In this document: positions 53,874 to 63,999 of the stretch, piece by piece
Layout of the letters: every line of letters starts with the position of its first letter
Numbering within the stretch: position 1 is the first letter of the stretch
Assembly: GCA_016839705.1 (NCBI GenBank)
Contig: JAEOTR010000060.1
Coordinates: 64,001 to 128,000 of the forward strand
Length of the DNA stretch: 64,000 nt
DNA from: Promethearchaeota archaeon
GTDB taxonomy: Archaea; Asgardarchaeota; Lokiarchaeia; Sigyniarchaeales; SOKP01
Reading direction: 5' to 3'
The notes under the pieces: generated by a model
The model's database searches: none
What the model was told of the DNA's origin: nothing
Seen by the model: only the letters and a program-made list of their open reading frames with translations
Position numbers and translations under genes: made by a program

Positions 53874-54743
53874 ATGACAATCTACGAACTTAGTATCATC
53901 TCAACAACTGGGTTCCCATATTATAATAAGGTAATTAACCCTATACCTGAAGGAGTAAGAATTTTTCTTAGATTTTTTGATTTTTCCAGTGATAAATCCA
54001 TTATCCATGACCAATTAGATTCCGATTCAAAATTTGATCTTACTGCCGGATTAATATCAGCTTTATTCGAATTTGCTCGCAATATAGATAAAAAAATTGT
54101 AAGACTTGAATTTAAAGCAAAGAAATCACCTAAAAATTCCAAAAAAGTAGAAGAAAAAAACAAAGAGAAAGGAGACGTATTGGTTACAGCCCAAACAGAA
54201 TCATTTCTACTCCATAATTCAGTGCGTGAAAAGGTTAGATTAATTTATAAGAATTTTATAAATGCTAAAGTTCCTCTCGACTCTGCGGATTCGATTATAA
54301 AAAATGAAGAGAATAAAATTATTGATATTTTAACAGATTCAAAAGCGAGAAAAACGATTTCTAATCACCAAAGTGAACTTAAACATACCGCAAACAACTT
54401 CATGAGTGAAATGAAAGATTATGGTCTATGGGGAATATGCATAACGTCATTTGATCTATCTCCTATAGTTGCATATGGCAAGAAATATTCCCTCAACCAT
54501 GTCAATGAAATTTTAAGGCATATCAGCTATATCCCTGATATTGATCCTTTAGAATGGATATATAGACAATCATTCTTTTCTGAGGAACAAATCCAAGTCT
54601 GCATTATCAAATCAGGCATAGGACCAACAATTGAAGATACATTATTCGAGCCCTATTTTTATCTACTATTTGCCGATCCTCAAAGTTATTTTGGAGAATT
54701 CCCTGCTAAACTGACTGCTGCGTTCAATAATATCCTTGGATAA
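53874..54743 (+). CDS. Hypothetical protein, longin/roadblock-like fold(s)
   Basis: N-terminal IYELSIISTTGFPYY beta-hairpin and LTAGLISALFEFA helix resemble Asgard longin-like domains; second half GLWGICITSFDLSPI. Recognised by eye only. Confidence 0.5.
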   Translation: MTIYELSIISTTGFPYYNKVINPIPEGVRIFLRFFDFSSDKSIIHDQLDSDSKFDLTAGLISALFEFARNIDKKIVRLEFKAKKSPKNSKKVEEKNKEKGDVLVTAQTESFLLHNSVREKVRLIYKNFINAKVPLDSADSIIKNEENKIIDILTDSKARKTISNHQSELKHTANNFMSEMKDYGLWGICITSFDLSPIVAYGKKYSLNHVNEILRHISYIPDIDPLEWIYRQSFFSEEQIQVCIIKSGIGPTIEDTLFEPYFYLLFADPQSYFGEFPAKLTAAFNNILG

Positions 54744-54770
54744 AAAACCTAAAATTCAAGAGATATAAGA

Positions 54771-55541
54771 CTATTGAATACTTTTCTCAGCAGCTTGCAC
54801 TATCTCAGCTAGGGACTCTGATTGAAGTGAAGCCCCACCAACTAAACCACCATCAATATTCTCTTTGCTAAATAGGATTTCAGCATTTTGTGGCTTTATT
54901 GACCCACCATATTGTATCCTTACTGAATCTGCGGTCTCTTGGTTATATTTTTGAGAAATTAATTCACGTATAAACATGTGAATCTCCTCTGCCTGCTCAG
55001 GAGTCGCTGTTTTTCCTGTACCTATTGCCCAGATTGGTTCATATGCTATTACTGTTTGAATCATCTGATCTCTCGTAAGATCCTTAAAAGATCCCATCAT
55101 TTGGTTTTCTATTACATCTTTGGTTCTTCCTGTTTCTCTTTCCTCTAGATGTTCACCAATGCATACTATAGGTTTTAAACCAATCATTAAAGCTTTTTTC
55201 AATTTTTTATTAACTATTACATCTGATTCATTGAAAATATTTCTTCTTTCACTATGTCCAAGAATAATATATTCAACTCCAATTTCCTTTAAAAACTGTG
55301 GTGATATTTCCCCGGTAAAGGCTCCCTTTTCTTCATAATACATATTCTGAGCTCCAAGCTTAACATTTGTATCTTTTATAATTTCATAAGCACTTATCAA
55401 TCCCGTAAATGGAGGTGCGATTACCACCTCAACATTTATTACATTTTTAATCAGAGGAACGAAATCAATCAACATTTCTTTCGATTCTTTCGGTGTACCT
55501 CTATTCATCTTCCAATTTCCCCCAATTATTGGTTTTCTCAA
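54771..55541 (-). CDS. tpiA: Triosephosphate isomerase (bacterial/eukaryotic type)
   Basis: GGNWKMN, GAFTGEIS, GHSERR, AYEPIWAIGTG, YGGS and LVGGASL; probable TTG start at 55541 after GAGG. Confidence 0.97.
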   Translation of the reverse strand: MRKPIIGGNWKMNRGTPKESKEMLIDFVPLIKNVINVEVVIAPPFTGLISAYEIIKDTNVKLGAQNMYYEEKGAFTGEISPQFLKEIGVEYIILGHSERRNIFNESDVIVNKKLKKALMIGLKPIVCIGEHLEERETGRTKDVIENQMMGSFKDLTRDQMIQTVIAYEPIWAIGTGKTATPEQAEEIHMFIRELISQKYNQETADSVRIQYGGSIKPQNAEILFSKENIDGGLVGGASLQSESLAEIVQAAEKSIQ

Positions 55542-55663
55542 CTTCTTTAACCTCAAAATATTTTTAAATATTAAAAATACCAATTTTCGTTATTTATCAA
55601 TTAAGATACAGAGACTATTAAACTCTCACGAAAAATTTAAAAAATATAATCAAAAAGAAAGAG

Positions 55664-56173
55664 CTAAGATAATTCAGATTTAGGAAGTTTTTCAGGTAGT
55701 TTAGTGGCTTCTAAGAGCTTTTTTACTTCATCCATATCAGGAGCCATTATCTCTGGCAAACCTAATTGTGTACGCCTTCTTTCTATAGCAGGTTGCATTG
55801 GAATTGCTTTTCCATGCTCTAACACTGTTGAAGCTTGACCTGTATAATGAACAGGTGCTTCACCTCTCTCTACACTCATATTTTTTAAAAGTGTAAAGAT
55901 CTCTGTTAGCTCAACTTTTTGAGGACATACTTCATCACACGTGTCACATACAGTACATCCCCAAATATTAAAAGCATTCTCTGGTCCAAATATTTTCTCT
56001 TTAAGACCTAATAGGGCATCTAAAATTAACCGCCTCGGGTTGTATCTACCCTCAGTAACCTGCGCTACCGGACATGCTCCACTACAAGTTGCACATTGAT
56101 AACAATATGCTAATGTATTACCAATCTCATTTCCAAGAATTTGGTTTCTGAAATCAAAATCTATAGTTGCCAT
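55664..56173 (-). CDS. hdrC: Heterodisulfide reductase subunit C-like 2[4Fe-4S] protein
   Basis: CYQCATCSGACP, YNPRRLI and WGCTVCDTCDEVCPQ. Confidence 0.88.
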   Translation of the reverse strand: MATIDFDFRNQILGNEIGNTLAYCYQCATCSGACPVAQVTEGRYNPRRLILDALLGLKEKIFGPENAFNIWGCTVCDTCDEVCPQKVELTEIFTLLKNMSVERGEAPVHYTGQASTVLEHGKAIPMQPAIERRRTQLGLPEIMAPDMDEVKKLLEATKLPEKLPKSELS

Positions 56174-56579
56174 ATGAATTGATCTGTTTATCTTATTATT
56201 ATCTAGTATAACTTATTGTCGATTTTAAAATTAATTCTTTTAAAATTTAGTTTTAAAATTAGTAAATTCACTTCATTTGCAGAAGTTTCAACTCTGATTG
56301 TTTCAAGTAATCTAATGATAAAATATCTATCAAAAATTGTTGCTTCAATGCTTATTTACACTTTCGTGTAATGTTATTCTTAACACATGAGATAAGGTAT
56401 TATTTTAGTTAGAAGTTCCAGTATTATTGTTAAATAGATCGGTACCTGCATTACTTTATCGCGATTTTTGAACTTTATGCTCTTTTCAGCACACACATTT
56501 ATAGTTAGAGTTTTTATTTATTAATTAACAATTTTGTATATTTTTTCTTAAAAATCTATTCAAAACACTGAGTAAAAGA

Positions 56580-57284
56580 TTGCCAGGTATGATAAAAGAA
56601 GTAATAATACGTGTATCTGAAAAATTTATTATAGTTATTATTTCCATCTTTTTGTATGTACCAATAATAGTTGGTATTTTATCACCAATGTTAATATTCT
56701 TCCCACTTGATCTTTATATTTCTTGGTCATTAATCGGAGATAGGCTGTGGATGTGGGGTTATTATCTAATTCCTTCACACTCACTTACTCTGGTAATCTC
56801 GATTGAAGCGTTTCTATTTTGCTTTGGATTAGGATTACTTCTATCTGGGTTATTTACCTTGGTAAAAGAAAAAATAAAGGGAGTTGGGTTGGTTAAGACC
56901 GGAATATATAAATATTTTCGACACCCGCAGAATTTAGGCATTGTCCTAATGGTGCTCCCATTCGCAATATACGTTCCAGGATTCAGAGATATTGGAATTA
57001 GAATGGGCGAGATAGCATCTTGGCTATATTTTGCCTTCTTTATGTGCCTCTATTCTTTTTATGAGGAATGGCGTTTATCAAGAAAATATGAAAATGAATA
57101 CCTAGAATATTATGGAAAAACAGGACACTTCATTCCTAAAATAAAAGATAAAAAAACTGAAACTCCACCAAGAATAAATTTCCTAAAGAAAATTCTAATA
57201 ACAGTTTTAGTATACGTGTCCTTTTATTTTCTACTCGACTTGATAATACGATTATTCTTTGATTTAATAATCTATTACAAATAA
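56580..57284 (+). CDS. Isoprenylcysteine carboxyl-/phospholipid methyltransferase-family membrane protein
   Basis: LVKTGIYKYFRHPQNLG and EEWRL..KY..EY.EY...T..FIP; several TMs. Confidence 0.85.
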   Translation: MPGMIKEVIIRVSEKFIIVIISIFLYVPIIVGILSPMLIFFPLDLYISWSLIGDRLWMWGYYLIPSHSLTLVISIEAFLFCFGLGLLLSGLFTLVKEKIKGVGLVKTGIYKYFRHPQNLGIVLMVLPFAIYVPGFRDIGIRMGEIASWLYFAFFMCLYSFYEEWRLSRKYENEYLEYYGKTGHFIPKIKDKKTETPPRINFLKKILITVLVYVSFYFLLDLIIRLFFDLIIYYK

Positions 57285-57558
57285 AACATAGGTTTGATTT
57301 TTTCTGGTGTAATTTCATACAAATAACCGATAATATTTGTAAAGGAGTAAGCCGAAATGCTGCTGTTGAATATATAAAGGAAATGAGTTTATGGGAAATT
57401 CAACAATAGTACTGGGTAACAATGTTAAGTTTCTAAATATCAGTCTCATCAGTATTAAATTCATTTAATTTAAATATTATAATTGTATAAAGAATATCTT
57501 GAAGGGTAAAACTATATCGAGTATTATTAAGTAAGTATGTTAAAAAAAAAAAATTTGT

Positions 57559-59661
57559 ATGCCATCCCAGAAATTAAGTTTATTAAGCTTAGTAAGGTAT
57601 ACCAAGAACGAACTTCTACTTGAATCGTTCCTACAGGCAAAAGGTGAACATCGATATAGGATTTTAGAAAGATATAAAAAGAAAGGGCGTTCACTCAAAC
57701 TTAAAGTAATAATTACTAAAATCATATATGCGGTTATATTTGGCATTCTTCCTATAATGCCATTATTAACTTATTTTCAAATTATCGAAAACCTTATAGA
57801 AAGTCCTGTTTCAATTGAAAGTATAATATTTTTTGGAAGTATTCTCTTTACATTGTATTTTAGTCTACAATTTTTTAATTTCTTTCTAATGGGGCTATTA
57901 GAATCTGGTATGATAATGTCTGGTATTATCTTTCGTTGGCTTGAAACTTTGCCAATTTCAAGAGATAAATTACACAAATTAGCTTATTTAACTATATTCC
58001 GAAGTTTTGATATCCCGATGATTGTAATTGTATTAGGGTTTCCAATTGCAATACTCGTTGGAACTCAGAACATCCTAATTTTTTTTGTAGCTTTAGGTAT
58101 TTCACTCTTAAATATTATTTTTTCCTTTAATCTTCTTATTATTTTTGGAGAAAGACTCAATTGTGTCTTAGATTTTAACAAAGGTAGTTCGAAACGATCA
58201 CTTTTAATTAGGTTGTTTCATATCCTGAGTTATTTAATAGTAATTCTTGGAAGCATATATATAATCCAGTGGGTTTTTAGCTCACTTGATGAGATTTTTC
58301 GATTAATTATAGAACTCGAATACCCTTCAATGGTAAATCTTATTCTTAGCATGATACCATATCCCTTCAATCCAAGTTATTTATTCTCAAGAATTATTAC
58401 ATTTAATCAAGGTTCTTTAGAATCCTGGGTCAGTATCTTTATTGGTTTAGGGCTATTTATAATTCTAACCTGGTGGAGTCATCTAAAAGCATCAAAAACA
58501 CTTAAAAAAATCACATATACGAAATATCGAAATACTAATAAAGATGGTCGTTCAGAATTAGTAGGAAATGAAATTCACATTAGGATTAAAACTCACTCTC
58601 CAATTGAAGCATATTTACGTAAAGATTTATCCGCAGCTTCACACGATCTTAAAACACTTCTATCTATGATAATGCCTATAATCCTCTCATGTATTTTTTC
58701 CTTTTCCTTTAATATTGGTAATATGGGAGTTGCGATTTTATTAGAAAGAGATCTATTTTATAATTGGGTGGGTATATTGTTTTTTAGTCCAGTAATATCC
58801 AGTATGCTAGTATATGGGGTATTAAATATAGAGATATCCGGTAAATCTGTTATGGCATCGCTACCGATCAATCCTCGAGAACAAGCAATTGCAAAATTTG
58901 AATTATTAATAATTCTTCAAACACTTGCAGTATTTACTCCTCTCTTGATATATATAAATACAGACAAATTTCTTCTTTTACTCTTCACAGTATTATTAAC
59001 TCTACCTACAGTATGGGTATATATAGTTTTAACTTTTGAATTAAGAGTTCTCTATTTTGGTAAATTTAAAAACCATTATGTAGTTGATGAAGTTAATCCA
59101 GAAAGTAGGAGTTTTAAATGGATTTTAATCTTGTGTATTCAAGATATTATCTCTTTCTGGCAAATCTCAGTCTTAATTACATTTTATTTAAATCAGCAAT
59201 TTCTTAATTCATTAATTTTCTCCTTTTTTGCAGTAGATTTAATAGGATTCCTAAGCGTTGTTGTTTTATTTGAAAAAATTTTCCCAGATCTTCCAGCATT
59301 CAAAACAATTCCCATATTTCAATACGATTTCCAAAATTTGCCCAAATATACATTAGATGCAAAACTTACCACGCTTCCTTCAGCTGAGAAAGCACAAATA
59401 ATTAAAGAAATGAATAAAAATCCCGATGTATATTCTGATAAGATAAAAGAGAAAATTGACCTAGGAAATAAATTAATGAAACAAGAAAAATTCGATGAAT
59501 CAATACATGAATTTCAAATTGCTTTAACTCTTATTAAAGAGAAATTTAACATTTTACCCGATACAATAAGAAATAGGTTTAATGAGGGAAACGAAATTAG
59601 AGAAATTTATAGTTTAATTAATCAATTGGAAATTAATAAAATTAAAAACAAGGAGCAATAA
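57559..59661 (+). CDS. Polytopic membrane protein, ABC-2 permease-like, with helical (TPR-like) C-terminal tail
   Basis: Two TM blocks each containing a WLETLPIS / MASLPINPRE motif; C-terminal GNKLMKQEKFDESIHEFQIAL. Confidence 0.65.
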   Translation: MPSQKLSLLSLVRYTKNELLLESFLQAKGEHRYRILERYKKKGRSLKLKVIITKIIYAVIFGILPIMPLLTYFQIIENLIESPVSIESIIFFGSILFTLYFSLQFFNFFLMGLLESGMIMSGIIFRWLETLPISRDKLHKLAYLTIFRSFDIPMIVIVLGFPIAILVGTQNILIFFVALGISLLNIIFSFNLLIIFGERLNCVLDFNKGSSKRSLLIRLFHILSYLIVILGSIYIIQWVFSSLDEIFRLIIELEYPSMVNLILSMIPYPFNPSYLFSRIITFNQGSLESWVSIFIGLGLFIILTWWSHLKASKTLKKITYTKYRNTNKDGRSELVGNEIHIRIKTHSPIEAYLRKDLSAASHDLKTLLSMIMPIILSCIFSFSFNIGNMGVAILLERDLFYNWVGILFFSPVISSMLVYGVLNIEISGKSVMASLPINPREQAIAKFELLIILQTLAVFTPLLIYINTDKFLLLLFTVLLTLPTVWVYIVLTFELRVLYFGKFKNHYVVDEVNPESRSFKWILILCIQDIISFWQISVLITFYLNQQFLNSLIFSFFAVDLIGFLSVVVLFEKIFPDLPAFKTIPIFQYDFQNLPKYTLDAKLTTLPSAEKAQIIKEMNKNPDVYSDKIKEKIDLGNKLMKQEKFDESIHEFQIALTLIKEKFNILPDTIRNRFNEGNEIREIYSLINQLEINKIKNKEQ

Positions 59662-59863
59662 CCAAATTTTCGTCAATCTTCTTCACTTACTAACTTTTTT
59701 AAACGAACTAATCTAACTATTTAGAACATCTTAAGAAACAATAACTAGATTTTTTAATTGTGGTTATTTGGAAATACTTTGTCTTAGGGTAAGTGACTAT
59801 TCTGGAACCTGCTACTGATAATAAAAAAGAAAAGAAAAAAAGAAAAAATTTCAGATTTATTAA

Positions 59864-59894
59864 GGATGGTTTACCTTTCGAAGGTTCCCCATCC
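59864..59894. other. GC-rich intergenic hairpin
   Basis: GGATGG-TTT-ACCTT-TCG-AAGGT-TCC-CCATCC in an otherwise very AT-rich spacer. Confidence 0.6.
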
Positions 59895-60067
59895 CATCTC
59901 ACTGTGATTTATGCATTTTTTGATTTCTTATGATATACTAAAATGATTTCATCATTAAAATCCATTTATAAATTCTAAATAAAACCAATAAAAGCAATTA
60001 AATATTTATTCCCACAATTATATAACAAAAACAAAAATAATTGTAAAACACACAAAATTGAATTATC

Positions 60068-60454
60068 ATGACAAAAATAGAAGAACTCCAAGAATTTGGA
60101 CTTGAAATCACCGATGACCTAAAAGAAGGCAAGGTTATCCTCGATGTATACACTGAAATTTGAGTGAATATATCACTCAAACAGGATTGGTGTGGACCTT
60201 GCAAATTTGTTAGCCCTGTTCTAGAGAAACTGAAGAATGAAGGATTAATTAAGTTATTGAAAGAGGACTTAGATAAAAATCGACCACTCGGCGAAAGATT
60301 TGGAATTACTGCCATACCAACATTGCTTTTTTTCAAAAATGGTGAACTCTTAAACCACCCGATAGAAGTTCAGGGCCAAATGCTAGTAAGAAATGGTGTG
60401 ATGGTGGGGGCTGCCGGGGAGCCTATTTTAAGACAAATTATTGACCAGATGTAG
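60068..60454 (+). CDS. trxA: Thioredoxin, split by a candidate 30-nt intron (exons 60068-60157 and 60188-60454, 118 aa)
   Basis: Exon 1 MTKIEELQEFGLEITDDLKEGKVILDVYTE joins exon 2 WCGPCKFVSPVLEKL...GITAIPTLLFFKNG; the unspliced frame has TGA at 60161. Confidence 0.85.
60158..60187 (+). other. Candidate BHB-type intron in thioredoxin mRNA
   Basis: ATTTGAGTGAATATATCACTCAAACAGGAT; perfect 9-bp stem TTTGAGTGA/TCACTCAAA; flanking ACTG/CAGG helix with 3-nt bulges AAA and ATT. Confidence 0.72.
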
Positions 60455-60529
60455 AATTTGGAAGGAATACATTACTTTTTTATTTCATTTTTTTATTTAA
60501 GTAAAAGGAATCTCATTTTAGCAAATTGA

Positions 60530-60778
60530 TCATCCCTTTCTTAGTAAGGTCGTAACTTTTCTATAATCTGCATCATTTTCAGTAATAACCGTTTTCAGGG
60601 CTTGAAATTTGTAGTGAAGCTTTGAGTTGTCTTCAGATTTTATCAATTTCTCAATTGAGTTAAGTTTGGAATTCAATTTTTTTCTAATTTTCCTTAATCT
60701 ATAAGTTTCATATAGAAGATCTAATTGATTATAATCTTCAATTCTCTGAATTGGCTCTTTAAATTTAATTTCTGTCAT
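60530..60778 (-). CDS. Small hypothetical coiled-coil protein
   Basis: 82-aa ATG ORF with plausible composition; no motif recognised. Confidence 0.55.
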   Translation of the reverse strand: MTEIKFKEPIQRIEDYNQLDLLYETYRLRKIRKKLNSKLNSIEKLIKSEDNSKLHYKFQALKTVITENDADYRKVTTLLRKG

Positions 60779-60879
60779 TTTTTTGGTTAGAAATATTTCA
60801 GTGATAAAGAATAAATTCTTGTATATTTAAACAAAAAAAAAGAGAATTTTTTATATATAAAAAAATAATTAAAAAAGGT

Positions 60880-61125
60880 TTGAAGTTTAAGATTTTTGTT
60901 GAAACGCAAGAAAATGAAGTTTATAAAATACGGATGAGAAGGAGTAAGCAACCAACGAAAATTCAAAAAGAAATAGTAAGTAAGATAAGCTCATATAAAA
61001 CTGATAAGAAGTTTAATTCTGTTGAGATTCAATTGGAACTCCATGAAAAATTATTAGATATTTATTTAATGCACTCTGACAGGCAAACTAAAACACTTTT
61101 AGATTTTAAGTCTATTGCTAAATAA
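60880..61125 (+). CDS. Small hypothetical protein
   Basis: 81-aa TTG ORF; C-terminal QTKTLLDF is weakly PIP-box-like. Confidence 0.45.
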   Translation: MKFKIFVETQENEVYKIRMRRSKQPTKIQKEIVSKISSYKTDKKFNSVEIQLELHEKLLDIYLMHSDRQTKTLLDFKSIAK

Positions 61126-61240
61126 GAATATAATTCTTCTTAGTATAACATTGTTAGTATAAATCATACGAATAATCTGTTAAAACGGTTACAAATTTTT
61201 TATTTAATGCTATTTTTTCAATATTAAATTAAACATAGGA

Positions 61241-61768
61241 TTGCATAATAGAAAGATGAATTATACAAGGGCAGATTTAACGCAAACGGATGCAACCATG
61301 AACCAGATGAGAAATGCTGTGTATGAGTTAGCTCGATTCATGGAGAAAAATGGGATAGCAGATTTAAAGAATAAATTAAGGAAGATGGGAAGAAATATTG
61401 CCAGAACCTACGTTCGATACTGGAAACCAACAAATCAAGTTATTGACTCCAATTTAAAAGACGTAATTACAACTATTTATCAAAAAATTCTCAACAGTTC
61501 TGTTTCTATTGAAGTTGTTGATAATGAAAATTTGGTTAAAGTTCAAGATTATAAATGTGCTTTATGCAAATATCAGTACGATGATATAGAAATAGCAGGG
61601 TGTGAGATTATCTTAGGAATGGTGTCTGAAATCATAAACCTTATCAATGGTGAAGTTAAAAATACCTCTTCTGTATTTATAGAACCATTAGAAGTAGCAG
61701 AATCTCGAGCATATGGGAATAAAGTCTGTATTCAAGTATACAAATACAAAATTGGTGAGGGGAGTTAG
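61241..61768 (+). CDS. V4R / TRAPP Bet3-like domain protein
   Basis: LKNKLRKMGRNIA helix, KCALC, GCEIILGMVSEII and ESRAYGNKVC. Confidence 0.65.
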   Translation: MHNRKMNYTRADLTQTDATMNQMRNAVYELARFMEKNGIADLKNKLRKMGRNIARTYVRYWKPTNQVIDSNLKDVITTIYQKILNSSVSIEVVDNENLVKVQDYKCALCKYQYDDIEIAGCEIILGMVSEIINLINGEVKNTSSVFIEPLEVAESRAYGNKVCIQVYKYKIGEGS

Positions 61769-61770
61769 AA

Positions 61771-63240
61771 ATGGGTGCTTTTCAATGGTTAATGAAAAAA
61801 ATTACGAAGGTTTTTGGGCATTCTACTAACGCTCTTTTTTACACACTGCTTTATAGGGAAATTCTTAAGGAAATAAACGTGATTACTAATAAAGAGGAAG
61901 ATAGTCTTGCAATCCTTAAAGAAATTGGCAAGAGAGCTGCATACGAATCATGTGAACGCCATTCAAGCATCTTTAAATTTATGCCAGGATCTCCTAAAAA
62001 GATCTTAGAATATTTTGAGATTCTATGGGTCGTTGTATTTGGAAGAGAGTTAGACGATTATTCTTATGAAGAAATTTCTAAAGAGGATTCAAAGTATAAT
62101 GATTATATTTTAAGTATTAGCAAGTGTCCTATATGTGCAGGTTATGGTCAAGATACTGAAGATACTTTTGATTTTAGTAAAACAAAAAATGAGAAAACAG
62201 AAGGTTTAGCGTGTGGATTATGTGGGATGCTGGAAAGTGTTGCTAATTTTATACTAAAAATAAAGAGAAATGATTATAGAATTCAAATAATTGAACAAGA
62301 CTGTATAGCAAAGGGTGGAGATTCACTACAATTTGTCTGTAAAATATATGACTATAATCAATGGAAAGAACTTATGGATTCAAAGGATCCCCAGAAAGTT
62401 ACAATAGACGCTTATTTTGGAGAACGGTTGGAAGAAGAAATTGTGCAAGAAACCAAACTTGATATTATTGATAAACTCCAAGATGTTATATCAATTGATA
62501 AACTAGAAGAATACCTTGATGAGCCACTTGAAACCATCAAGGAACGTGTTTCTGATATTATTAGAGATAAATTGAACATGGAACCTGACCATTTTTTTGA
62601 CTATTTTAGAAATTATGAGGATGATATGATTAGAATAATTGGATATCTAGGAATTCATCTTCTAAACGAGTATGGTGGAATATTAGAAAAATCTCTCAAA
62701 AATGAATGGCTTGCTAAAGTTTTTGGATATTTATTTAAGCAAGTTAAAGAAATGGTTTTATTATTCATTCCGTTAGATGTGATCCGAGATTACAATGAAT
62801 TACTCGTAAATTTTCTAGAAGGGATGGCGCCAGAAGAAATGATTGATAATATTAAACAGATTACAGGAAGGGATACAATAAATTTGATTTTTGAGGGAGC
62901 CCAAATGGCTCTTGAAAATTTAGGAATTGCGTTCACTGAATTAAAAGAAAATGTGTGGGAAGAATTAAAGAAAGAAAGAGAAGATGGATTAGTTTCATCT
63001 GATTCAACCACAGTTGATAAAACTCGCGAAAGAGTCCCACATATTATCAATATACTTCAAGAAATTTTAATGATAATTACTGATATTCTCACTTTACCAA
63101 TTCGTGTTTTAATTTCTGAAAGCCATTACGGGTTAAAAGCTGCAATAAATTCAGTTATATCTGAAGAAGAAGGATTATATGGTTCAATAAGGGAACGGTT
63201 TGATAACATCTTTGATCAGATCGAAGAGATTAGAAAGTAA
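61771..63240 (+). CDS. V4R / TRAPP Bet3-like N-terminal domain plus long acidic helical C-terminus
   Basis: LFYTLLYREIL...LKEIGKRAA, KCPIC, ACGLCGMLES and EQDCIAKGGD. Confidence 0.65.
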   Translation: MGAFQWLMKKITKVFGHSTNALFYTLLYREILKEINVITNKEEDSLAILKEIGKRAAYESCERHSSIFKFMPGSPKKILEYFEILWVVVFGRELDDYSYEEISKEDSKYNDYILSISKCPICAGYGQDTEDTFDFSKTKNEKTEGLACGLCGMLESVANFILKIKRNDYRIQIIEQDCIAKGGDSLQFVCKIYDYNQWKELMDSKDPQKVTIDAYFGERLEEEIVQETKLDIIDKLQDVISIDKLEEYLDEPLETIKERVSDIIRDKLNMEPDHFFDYFRNYEDDMIRIIGYLGIHLLNEYGGILEKSLKNEWLAKVFGYLFKQVKEMVLLFIPLDVIRDYNELLVNFLEGMAPEEMIDNIKQITGRDTINLIFEGAQMALENLGIAFTELKENVWEELKKEREDGLVSSDSTTVDKTRERVPHIINILQEILMIITDILTLPIRVLISESHYGLKAAINSVISEEEGLYGSIRERFDNIFDQIEEIRK

Positions 63241-63999
63241 TTAATGATTTTTTTTATTACTCTTCTCCTTTTCTTTCAAGTATACCTCATAGAACCAATT
63301 AACGATATATTGATAAAAAAATCGTTCTCGCAAAACATCATAGTGTGATTTTCCCTTTAAACTTGTCAGTTTTGCTATATCTTCAGATTTGATTTTCCCT
63401 TTTTCTACTAATTCCATTCGAGTTATAAATTGATCTTTTAGTTTGATTTTTCTTAAAATTTGGGTAACAGCTTTAGAAATTTTTTCTATAATTTCTTCTA
63501 ATTCAATAGTTTTTATTTGTTGGAAACCATCAATCTGGTATAACTCGTATCTAATTTTCTTTAAAATTGAATTCTTATCATAGAAATTAACTATTTCCTT
63601 ATTACTAAGAAAATCAGATAAAAATTCAATTATTCTCTTTCTAAGGTCAAGCTTTATATCTAAATTTGATAACTCCTTCTCTAATTTATTCAAGAATTTA
63701 TTTCTTAAAAATTGTTTAAATTTAATTATGATCGCTTCAGATTCTTTCTGATCTGAGCATATTTCAATGATTTCTCCTTTAGGAGTAGAATAAGTAAAAC
63801 CCAAACCTTGCGGTCCTAAACCTCCAAGAAGAACCATAGAAATACTATAAAAATTATAGTTATCATTGGCCGTTATATTATCTATATTTTTAAAAATATT
63901 CTCTGGTGCAACAAAGTGTTTTTTTACTTCTTGATACTCATGATTCTCTTCAGCATCATAATAAATCGTTTTATAAATTACATTAAATTCAATAAATTT
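63241..63999 (-). CDS. Hypothetical protein, C-terminal part (frame open to the window end)
   Basis: Reading frame continues without a stop from 63999 through the listed ORF; contains GGLGPQGLGFTYSTPKGE. Confidence 0.75.
   Translation of the reverse strand, partial: KFIEFNVIYKTIYYDAEENHEYQEVKKHFVAPENIFKNIDNITANDNYNFYSISMVLLGGLGPQGLGFTYSTPKGEIIEICSDQKESEAIIIKFKQFLRNKFLNKLEKELSNLDIKLDLRKRIIEFLSDFLSNKEIVNFYDKNSILKKIRYELYQIDGFQQIKTIELEEIIEKISKAVTQILRKIKLKDQFITRMELVEKGKIKSEDIAKLTSLKGKSHYDVLRERFFYQYIVNWFYEVYLKEKEKSNKKNH

What the first reader, a model, noticed from the sequence alone, without database searches (positions are those of the whole stretch)
60068..60454. Candidate tRNA-type (bulge-helix-bulge) intron in a thioredoxin mRNA of an Asgard archaeon
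Seen in sequence: the gene reads ...GKVILDVYTE, then 30 nt (60158-60187) with an in-frame TGA, then WCGPC. The insert is a perfect 9-bp hairpin (TTTGAGTGA-ATATA-TCACTCAAA). It is flanked by a 4-nt helix ACTG/CAGG (3 Watson-Crick pairs plus A.G) and two 3-nt bulges, AAA and ATT. Cutting after the 2nd nt of each bulge, the established rule for the archaeal splicing endonuclease, removes exactly 30 nt and gives DVYTE-WCGPC, the canonical thioredoxin spacing. Both exons are otherwise intact. Established: BHB introns occur in archaeal tRNA/rRNA, and the well-known mRNA example is crenarchaeal cbf5. Inference: EndA/RtcB-type splicing is needed to make this thioredoxin and may gate its expression. 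More speculatively, this would parallel non-spliceosomal HAC1/XBP1 splicing. Standard gene callers would report only a truncated GTG-started ORF.
Basis: partly seen in the sequence, partly recalled or inferred. Interest (0 to 1): 0.95.

Follow-up and report, generated by a model that had tools for sequence, protein, structure and literature searches.

The report
tRNA-type mini-intron splits Asgard thioredoxin
A thioredoxin gene of an Asgard archaeon is broken just before its active site by a 30-base hairpin shaped like a tRNA intron; comparison with relatives, which carry such inserts at three different places in the same gene, says the messenger RNA is very probably cut and rejoined by the tRNA-splicing enzymes, something published for only one other archaeal coding sequence.

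Summary
Observation confirmed. The 30-nt insert (60158-60187, in-frame TGA) splits a thioredoxin of a Promethearchaeia (Lokiarchaeia) genome. It sits at the same site in 12 other sequences from independent assemblies, with four compensatory base pairs. One lineage has TAA for TGA and one a 32-nt frameshifting version, which excludes selenocysteine or read-through. Exons are under purifying selection (exon 1 dN/dS 0.07); the insert is conserved as RNA, not as protein. Three close intronless orthologues read exactly the predicted junction. Other orthologues carry unrelated BHB-shaped inserts at two more sites (25-35 nt, mostly frameshifting), and three genes carry two. The genome encodes RtcB and an EndA alpha subunit with the broad-specificity loop, and at least four more genes have such inserts. 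Best reading (0.88): an EndA/RtcB-spliced mRNA intron with a relaxed motif. Not shown: any spliced RNA (no run listed). The motif is not the predicted lowest-energy fold here. Gating of expression and the HAC1/XBP1 parallel are unsupported. Papers searched report only cbf5 and one Haloferax 5' UTR intron. This scan has noted the same phenomenon many times on other DNA (65 notes, at least 38 genomes), including this gene.

The parts
60068..60157 (+). Exon 1 of thioredoxin, 30 codons; encodes two short helices and the core strand that precedes the active site
   Evidence: aligns without gaps to intronless orthologues; dN/dS 0.074 among intron-bearing copies; strand at residues 22-28 in the model of the intronless orthologue L002
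60158..60187 (+). 30-nt intron (site A), phase 0, between the Glu30 and Trp31 codons
   Evidence: same site in 12 other sequences; boundaries from the cut-after-second-bulge-base rule and from intronless L002, L007, L124
60152..60155 (+). Exon strand of the central helix; preceded by C60151, the only outer pair (with G60189)
   Evidence: three pairs kept in 12/12, one with a U-A to C-G compensatory change in 4; fourth position never a standard pair (A.G or A.C)
60156..60158 (+). 5' three-base bulge; predicted cut after 60157
   Evidence: sequence; rule as cited in PMC2738675
60159..60181 (+). Intron hairpin: 9-bp stem and 5-nt variable loop
   Evidence: 92.6% of cells paired, 3 pairs with compensatory change; loop varies freely
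60161..60163 (+). In-frame TGA inside the stem; ends translation of unspliced mRNA after 31 residues
   Evidence: a stop at this codon in all twelve 30-nt copies, TAA in L051 and L052
60182..60185 (+). Intron strand of the central helix, complementary to the end of exon 1
60186..60188 (+). 3' three-base bulge; predicted cut after 60187; first base A invariant
   Evidence: column 45 invariant
60188..60454 (+). Exon 2: WCGPC active site to the stop codon (88 codons plus stop)
   Evidence: Pfam Thioredoxin PF00085; pN 0.10 against saturated pS 0.76

Best explanation
The insert is a small intron of the archaeal tRNA type in a protein-coding mRNA. After transcription the intron hairpin forms and its 3' flank pairs with the last bases of exon 1, leaving a 3-base bulge on each strand. 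The splicing endonuclease EndA (TACK/Asgard type with the broad-specificity loop) cuts after the second base of each bulge, RtcB joins the exons, and the mRNA then encodes a 118-aa WCGPC thioredoxin; unspliced mRNA stops at the TGA after 31 codons. SHOWN: the insert, its conservation and covariation, selection on both exons, exact-junction intronless alleles, two more BHB insert sites in orthologues, EndA alpha and RtcB genes. INFERRED: that the fold forms in the cell, cleavage, ligation, protein. The intron is most likely a tolerated passenger kept spliceable by selection, gained and lost repeatedly, rather than a regulator.
For: Same site and layout in 13 sequences, 8 of them from genomes of different species. 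Four pairs with two-sided change, 10 cells against 2.5 in shuffles, 0/500; slid controls 29-42% paired against 88%. Insert diverges far less (about 0.16) than synonymous exon sites (0.64-0.76) and shows pN = pS when read as codons. Exon bases that pair with the motif are locked: the C of the outer pair in 12/12 intron-bearing against 9/74 intron-free copies; same direction in about 5 of 5 independent pairs. Intronless L002, L007, L124, nested among intron-bearing copies, read the predicted junction exactly. Unrelated inserts of 30-34 nt (site B, 7 sequences; six with a perfect 4-bp helix) and 25-35 nt (site C, 8 sequences) fit the same cut rule; 14 of these 15 shift the frame. EndA alpha aligns to Aeropyrum pernix EndA at E 1e-34, including the loop with the K44 equivalent; RtcB intact. 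Four more genes in this genome regain textbook motifs by the same rule.
Against: No RNA was examined. The BHB core is not the predicted minimum-energy fold in the window copy or in 8 of the 11 others; the fourth helix pair is never canonical and the outer helix is one pair, so cleavage depends on relaxed specificity. In L040, L113, L051, L052 the BHB register gives T-V-W while the best homology register gives T-E-W; Val is however found at that position in 15 copies without this intron. Independent pairs are too few for significance (p 0.06). A beta subunit of EndA was not found with the queries used (genome 93% complete).
Confidence: 0.88

Rival explanations
1. Programmed ribosome bypass: the ribosome takes off at the Glu codon, slides over the hairpin and lands on the last codon of the insert, as in phage T4 gene 60.
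For: Hairpin with a stop; the last insert codon matches the take-off codon at 2 of 3 bases in the window and 3 of 3 in L005 and L111.
Against: The match is not conserved (1 of 3 in L051 and L052); the stop is the second, not the first, codon after take-off and is absent in L255; the A of the landing codon is explained as the first bulge base; covariation between exon end and insert end and sites B and C, which start inside codons, are not predicted.
Confidence: 0.03
2. No splicing: translation stops at TGA and restarts at the adjacent GTG, giving a 96-aa truncated or two-piece thioredoxin.
For: GTG or ATG follows the stop directly in 9 of the 11 distinct 30-nt copies tested; the GTG ORF still scores as Thioredoxin; termination-reinitiation and thioredoxin fragment complementation are known (own knowledge).
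Against: No restart codon in L040, L113, L255; the leader residues show pN = pS; the 96-aa form lacks the core strand 22-28; sites B and C would cut the protein after the active site and shift the frame.
Confidence: 0.04
3. The TGA is read as selenocysteine or otherwise read through, giving a thioredoxin with a 10-residue insert.
For: TGA in ten of twelve 30-nt copies; a tRNA-Sec is called in the genome.
Against: TAA in L051 and L052; 32-nt frameshifting insert at the same site in L255; no protein-level constraint on the insert; no SECIS-like pattern in 250 nt downstream.
Confidence: 0.01
4. An inert insertion (transposon footprint) in a dead or dying gene, or excision at the DNA level.
For: A second intact thioredoxin exists; the insert is a hairpin flanked by partial GA repeats.
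Against: Exons under purifying selection across synonymous saturation; insert more conserved than synonymous sites; no second copy of the insert in the genome; all 13 assemblies carry the insert in their consensus.
Confidence: 0.04

Closest known systems
cbf5 (pseudouridine synthase) pre-mRNA intron of Desulfurococcales and Sulfolobales (Watanabe 2002; Yokobori 2009, PMC2738675)
   Same: Short intron inside an archaeal coding sequence, at or beside the catalytic residue; unconventional BHB motif; cut between second and third bulge base by a hetero-oligomeric EndA; lineage-specific losses.
   Different: Asgard rather than Crenarchaeota; thioredoxin; three intron positions in one 118-codon gene family and genes with two introns, against a single position in cbf5; at least five such genes in one genome; splicing confirmed by cDNA for cbf5 but not tested here.
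Non-canonical BHB introns of archaeal tRNA genes, abundant in Asgard archaea (PMC11291895; bioRxiv 10.64898/2026.10.13.758758)
   Same: Same motif, similar size, many positions, repeated gain; half of the motif built from exon sequence; same enzymes expected.
   Different: Host RNA is an mRNA, so the exon half of the motif is also coding; those papers report nothing on mRNA (0 occurrences of 'mRNA' or 'cbf5' in the preprint).
46-nt BHB intron in the 5' UTR of Haloferax HVO_1309 (Schwarz 2020, PMC7714728)
   Same: EndA substrate in an mRNA.
   Different: Outside the coding sequence; removal is not needed to restore a reading frame.
HAC1/XBP1 non-spliceosomal mRNA splicing of eukaryotes (own knowledge)
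   Same: Short intron whose removal restores a frame; joined by a tRNA ligase (RtcB for XBP1).
   Different: Cut by Ire1 in two stem-loops, not by the tRNA endonuclease at a BHB; stress-regulated. No regulation is shown here and no homology is implied.

Membership tests
Archaeal BHB (EndA-type) intron | Two 3-nt bulges on opposite strands, 4 positions apart | tested here: met
   spacing kept in all 13 site-A copies
Archaeal BHB (EndA-type) intron | Strict form: four canonical pairs in the central helix and an outer exon helix | tested here: not met
   fourth pair A.G or A.C in 12/12, outer helix one C-G pair; so relaxed form at site A. Site B copies in orthologues do meet the strict form
Archaeal BHB (EndA-type) intron | Relaxed (HBh') form: central helix, 5' bulge and intron helix | tested here: met
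   3 helix pairs 12/12, 9-bp stem, 4 pairs with compensatory change
Archaeal BHB (EndA-type) intron | Cut after the second bulge base restores the functional sequence | tested here: met
   gives the junction found in intronless L002, L007, L124
Archaeal BHB (EndA-type) intron | Motif is the fold the RNA adopts | tested here: inconclusive
   not the predicted minimum-energy fold in 9 of 12 copies, but covariation supports it
Archaeal BHB (EndA-type) intron | Host encodes a broad-specificity EndA and RtcB | tested here: met
   alpha subunit with the L1/CSL loop and K44 equivalent, RtcB; beta subunit not found with these queries
Archaeal BHB (EndA-type) intron | Spliced RNA and excised (circular) intron exist; EndA cleaves in vitro | not testable with these tools
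   no RNA run was listed
Thioredoxin (PF00085) | WCGPC motif in a thioredoxin fold | tested here: met
   intronless orthologue L002, Pfam E 2.6e-17, model pLDDT 90.7, best PDB matches are thioredoxins
Selenoprotein | Conserved in-frame TGA at a Cys-homologous position plus SECIS | tested here: not met
Translational bypass element (T4 gene 60 type) | Matched take-off and landing codons with a stop right after take-off | tested here: not met
Group I or group II self-splicing intron | Catalytic RNA core of well over 100 nt | tested here: not met
   insert is 30 nt

The most novel reading that the evidence does not exclude
Promethearchaeia splice many ordinary mRNAs with the tRNA endonuclease and ligase, including mRNAs with more than one intron, and gain and lose such introns at new positions on short timescales. 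The closest prokaryotic relatives of eukaryotes would then have a general, protein-enzyme-based mRNA splicing system independent of the spliceosome and of group II introns, and their annotations would miss or truncate many conserved genes. A stronger form, that splicing of this thioredoxin is regulated (for example through the competing fold), is not excluded but has no support (about 0.1).
Probability: 0.8. Interest if true: 0.9.

Novelty: new variant of a known kind. Interest (0 to 1): 0.78.

Why it matters
Published archaeal mRNA splicing inside a coding sequence rests on one gene, cbf5 (PMC7714728). This locus shows the same kind of intron in an Asgard housekeeping gene, at three positions across one family and twice in some genes, so intron-containing mRNAs would be a normal feature of the archaeal lineage nearest to eukaryotes. 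It gives a short, directly testable substrate (RT-PCR across 30 nt; EndA cleavage of a 58-nt RNA), a natural series of strict and relaxed motifs for probing EndA specificity, and a practical warning: gene callers report a 96-aa GTG-started fragment, and metabolic reconstructions of Asgard genomes will miss such genes.

Tried and rejected
RNA evidence: the look-up of sequencing runs for window 54000-63900 listed no RNA holder; none was listed, which is no evidence either way, and read laying could not be used. De novo BHB scans of the genome without homology are unspecific: loose settings give the same counts for 1-, 2-, 4- and 5-nt bulge controls as for 3-nt; only with hairpin energy and a 3' bulge starting with A is there a modest excess (16 against 10, 6, 1), and those filters were chosen after seeing examples, so the five genes named rest on restored motifs, not on the scan statistic. 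Comparison of about 230 and 180 genes with 400-kb stretches of two relatives found only trx and iscU; it cannot see introns shared with the relative or very short first exons. No second copy of the insert in the genome; I did not run a direct comparison with tRNA introns, whose boundaries ARAGORN placed poorly. EndA beta subunit not found with three queries. Sigma-70 promoter scan is not informative for an archaeon. Selenocysteine, bypass, reinitiation and pseudogene readings were tested and ranked low (see rivals). Five literature searches found no paper on Asgard mRNA introns; the library lacks most subscription journals.

Full report
1. Observation. ATG 60068 opens a thioredoxin frame; after Glu30 come 30 extra bases (60158-60187) with TGA as their second codon, then WCGPC. 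The insert holds a perfect 9-bp stem; its last bases pair with the end of exon 1 (three Watson-Crick pairs and A.G), leaving 3-base bulges at 60156-58 and 60186-88. Cutting after the second base of each bulge gives a 118-aa protein. A helix-plus-stem score as high as here occurs at 4.5e-4 of random genome positions. The insert has no second copy in the genome. Orthologous loci come from records named Promethearchaeota or Promethearchaeia, that is Lokiarchaeia; the genome is 93% complete.

2. The insert is conserved and behaves as RNA. Orthologues were found in 106 of 135 genomes of the family, more with a full-length query and in metagenomes. The same site (A) carries an insert in 13 sequences: twelve of 30 nt and one of 32 nt (L255). 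In the twelve, 88% of cells of the proposed structure are paired; four pairs change on both sides, one of them between exon 1 and the intron end; shuffles reach the observed count of such cells 0 of 500 times and slid registers fall to 29-42% (kin are related, so this is not a p-value). The loop and the last three bases vary. Read as codons the insert has pN equal to pS (0.17, 0.15), yet it is far more conserved than synonymous exon sites (0.64-0.76), while exon 1 has dN/dS 0.074 and exon 2 pN 0.10. The gene is therefore alive, exon 1 is needed, and the insert is selected as nucleic acid. Exon bases that take part in the motif are locked: the third base of codon 28 is C in 12/12 intron-bearing and in 9/74 intron-free copies; about 5 of 5 independent pairs go the same way (p 0.06).

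3. Boundaries. Three intronless orthologues that fall among the intron-bearing ones in the tree (L002, L007, L124) read exactly the junction that the BHB rule predicts. In four more distant copies the BHB register gives Val instead of Glu before Trp; my homology-first script preferred another register there, but Val is present at that position in 15 copies without this intron. Site A changes state at least 6 times on the gene tree, and holding the seven intron-bearing copies of the window's clade together is weakly rejected (p-AU 0.037). Since the site-A inserts share length, layout and about 73% of bases between genera, one old gain with several losses, or exchange between lineages, is the simplest reading; this is inference.

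4. Two more sites in the same gene. Seven sequences carry 30-34 nt inside the Lys codon after the active site (site B); six have a perfect 4-bp central helix, with a compensatory change, and a 3-5-bp outer helix. Eight carry 25, 26 or 35 nt near codon 66 (site C). Fourteen of these fifteen shift the frame, and removal by the same rule restores full-length thioredoxins. L051 and L052 have inserts at A and C, L255 at A and B. In all, at least 17 of the 135 genomes have an interrupted copy; most copies are intron-free. Three unrelated inserts converging on one geometry is the strongest argument that the geometry is what the cell reads.

5. Machinery. The genome has one EndA catalytic subunit whose best solved relatives are the Aeropyrum pernix enzyme (E 1e-34); the alignment covers the insert loop and the lysine matching K44, which PMC5829648 describes as the determinant for relaxed motifs and as present in Asgard enzymes. 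RtcB is intact. A tRNA-Tyr with an anticodon-loop intron is present. The beta subunit was not found with three queries.

6. Other genes. Comparison with a relative recovered iscU (27 nt). A motif scan ranked trx, iscU, an EF-2 paralogue and RNase HII at the top and a looser pass added mevalonate kinase; in each the cut restores a textbook conserved motif. I had seen earlier notes naming these genes before running the scans, and the scan alone is unspecific against geometry controls, so five is a lower bound resting on motif restoration.

7. Mechanism and doubts. Most likely EndA cuts the relaxed motif, RtcB ligates, and the mRNA yields a normal thioredoxin; the model of an intronless orthologue (pLDDT 90.7) matches thioredoxins and shows that exon 1 carries a core strand. 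Every step after transcription is inferred; no RNA run was listed. The fourth helix pair is never canonical and the outer helix is one pair, and ViennaRNA prefers a competing exon-exon pairing by about 4 kcal/mol in the window copy. Order of synthesis (the intron end appears before exon 2) and enzyme binding may favour the BHB; that is inference. A stop is kept at the second intron codon in all twelve 30-nt copies, as TGA or TAA, which suggests selection to abort translation of unspliced mRNA. Rivals were tested: selenocysteine or read-through fails on TAA and on the 32-nt copy; bypass fails on unmatched codons; reinitiation fails where no start codon exists and at sites B and C; a dead gene fails on selection. 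Gating of expression is unsupported: most orthologues have no intron and a second thioredoxin is intact.

8. Known systems and novelty. The papers found name cbf5 as the only BHB intron in an archaeal coding sequence, plus a Haloferax 5' UTR intron (PMC7714728; PMC2738675, which adds that others had been predicted). Work on Asgard introns deals with tRNA. Searches for Asgard mRNA introns found nothing, within a library that lacks most subscription journals. The element works like the cbf5 intron and meets the testable features of a relaxed BHB intron; multiple sites per gene, two-intron genes and several genes per genome make it a new variant of that kind. Within this scan the phenomenon is not new: 65 notes in at least 38 genomes, including this thioredoxin in another genome, and some that report RNA-level joins for other genes. 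Those are unchecked notes and are not counted as evidence here.

9. Verdict. Real feature; EndA/RtcB-spliced mRNA intron at 0.88; regulation unsupported; interest 0.78.

Noticed in passing
G000 C85:74326 (+), 27 nt: BHB-shaped insert in iscU just before the first Fe-S cysteine motif; absent from the orthologue in G006.
   Followed up: partly
G000 C82:11187 (+), 30 nt: BHB-shaped insert in switch I of an EF-2 paralogue.
   Followed up: partly
G000 C25:55280 (+), 30 nt: BHB-shaped insert in the catalytic motif of RNase HII.
   Followed up: partly
G000 C29:8703 (+), 31 nt: Frameshifting BHB-shaped insert in the N-terminal motif of mevalonate kinase.
   Followed up: partly
L051, L052 (sites A and C); L255 = G081:C270 (sites A and B): Thioredoxin genes with two BHB-shaped inserts each, i.e. 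candidate multi-intron archaeal mRNAs.
   Followed up: partly
L025, L032: Intronless copies nested in the intron-bearing clade read T-T-W like the sister clade rather than T-E-W, which suggests loss by a recombination patch rather than exact deletion.
   Followed up: no
L269 = G077:C174:4332-4670 (-): A thioredoxin paralogue with TGA in place of the first active-site Cys codon; close relatives have TGT and no convincing SECIS was seen, so a nonsense change or assembly error is more likely than selenocysteine.
   Followed up: partly
L002 model, residues about 84-100 (window about 60345-60400): This thioredoxin subfamily has an extra beta-hairpin not covered by Pfam PF00085; strong matches were confined to the window's family among the relatives searched.
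   Followed up: no
G000 C42:69220 (L282) and C97:89319 (L284): Other thioredoxin-family genes of the genome are uninterrupted.
   Followed up: partly
window 53874-63240: Neighbours: triosephosphate isomerase-like ORF (54771-55583), HdrC-like 4Fe-4S protein (55664-56173, minus), a 700-aa membrane protein (57559-59661), and two overlapping ORFs without Pfam match (61241-63240) that earlier notes call V4R/Bet3-like.
   Followed up: no
G000 whole genome: ARAGORN finds only 18 tRNA genes, many with introns, in a 93% complete genome, which hints at further interrupted tRNA genes; a tRNA-Sec is called.
   Followed up: no
G000 C56:35901-36491 (L280): endA alpha lies between a MEMO1-like ORF and an ATP synthase subunit A-like ORF; no beta subunit beside it.
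   Followed up: no
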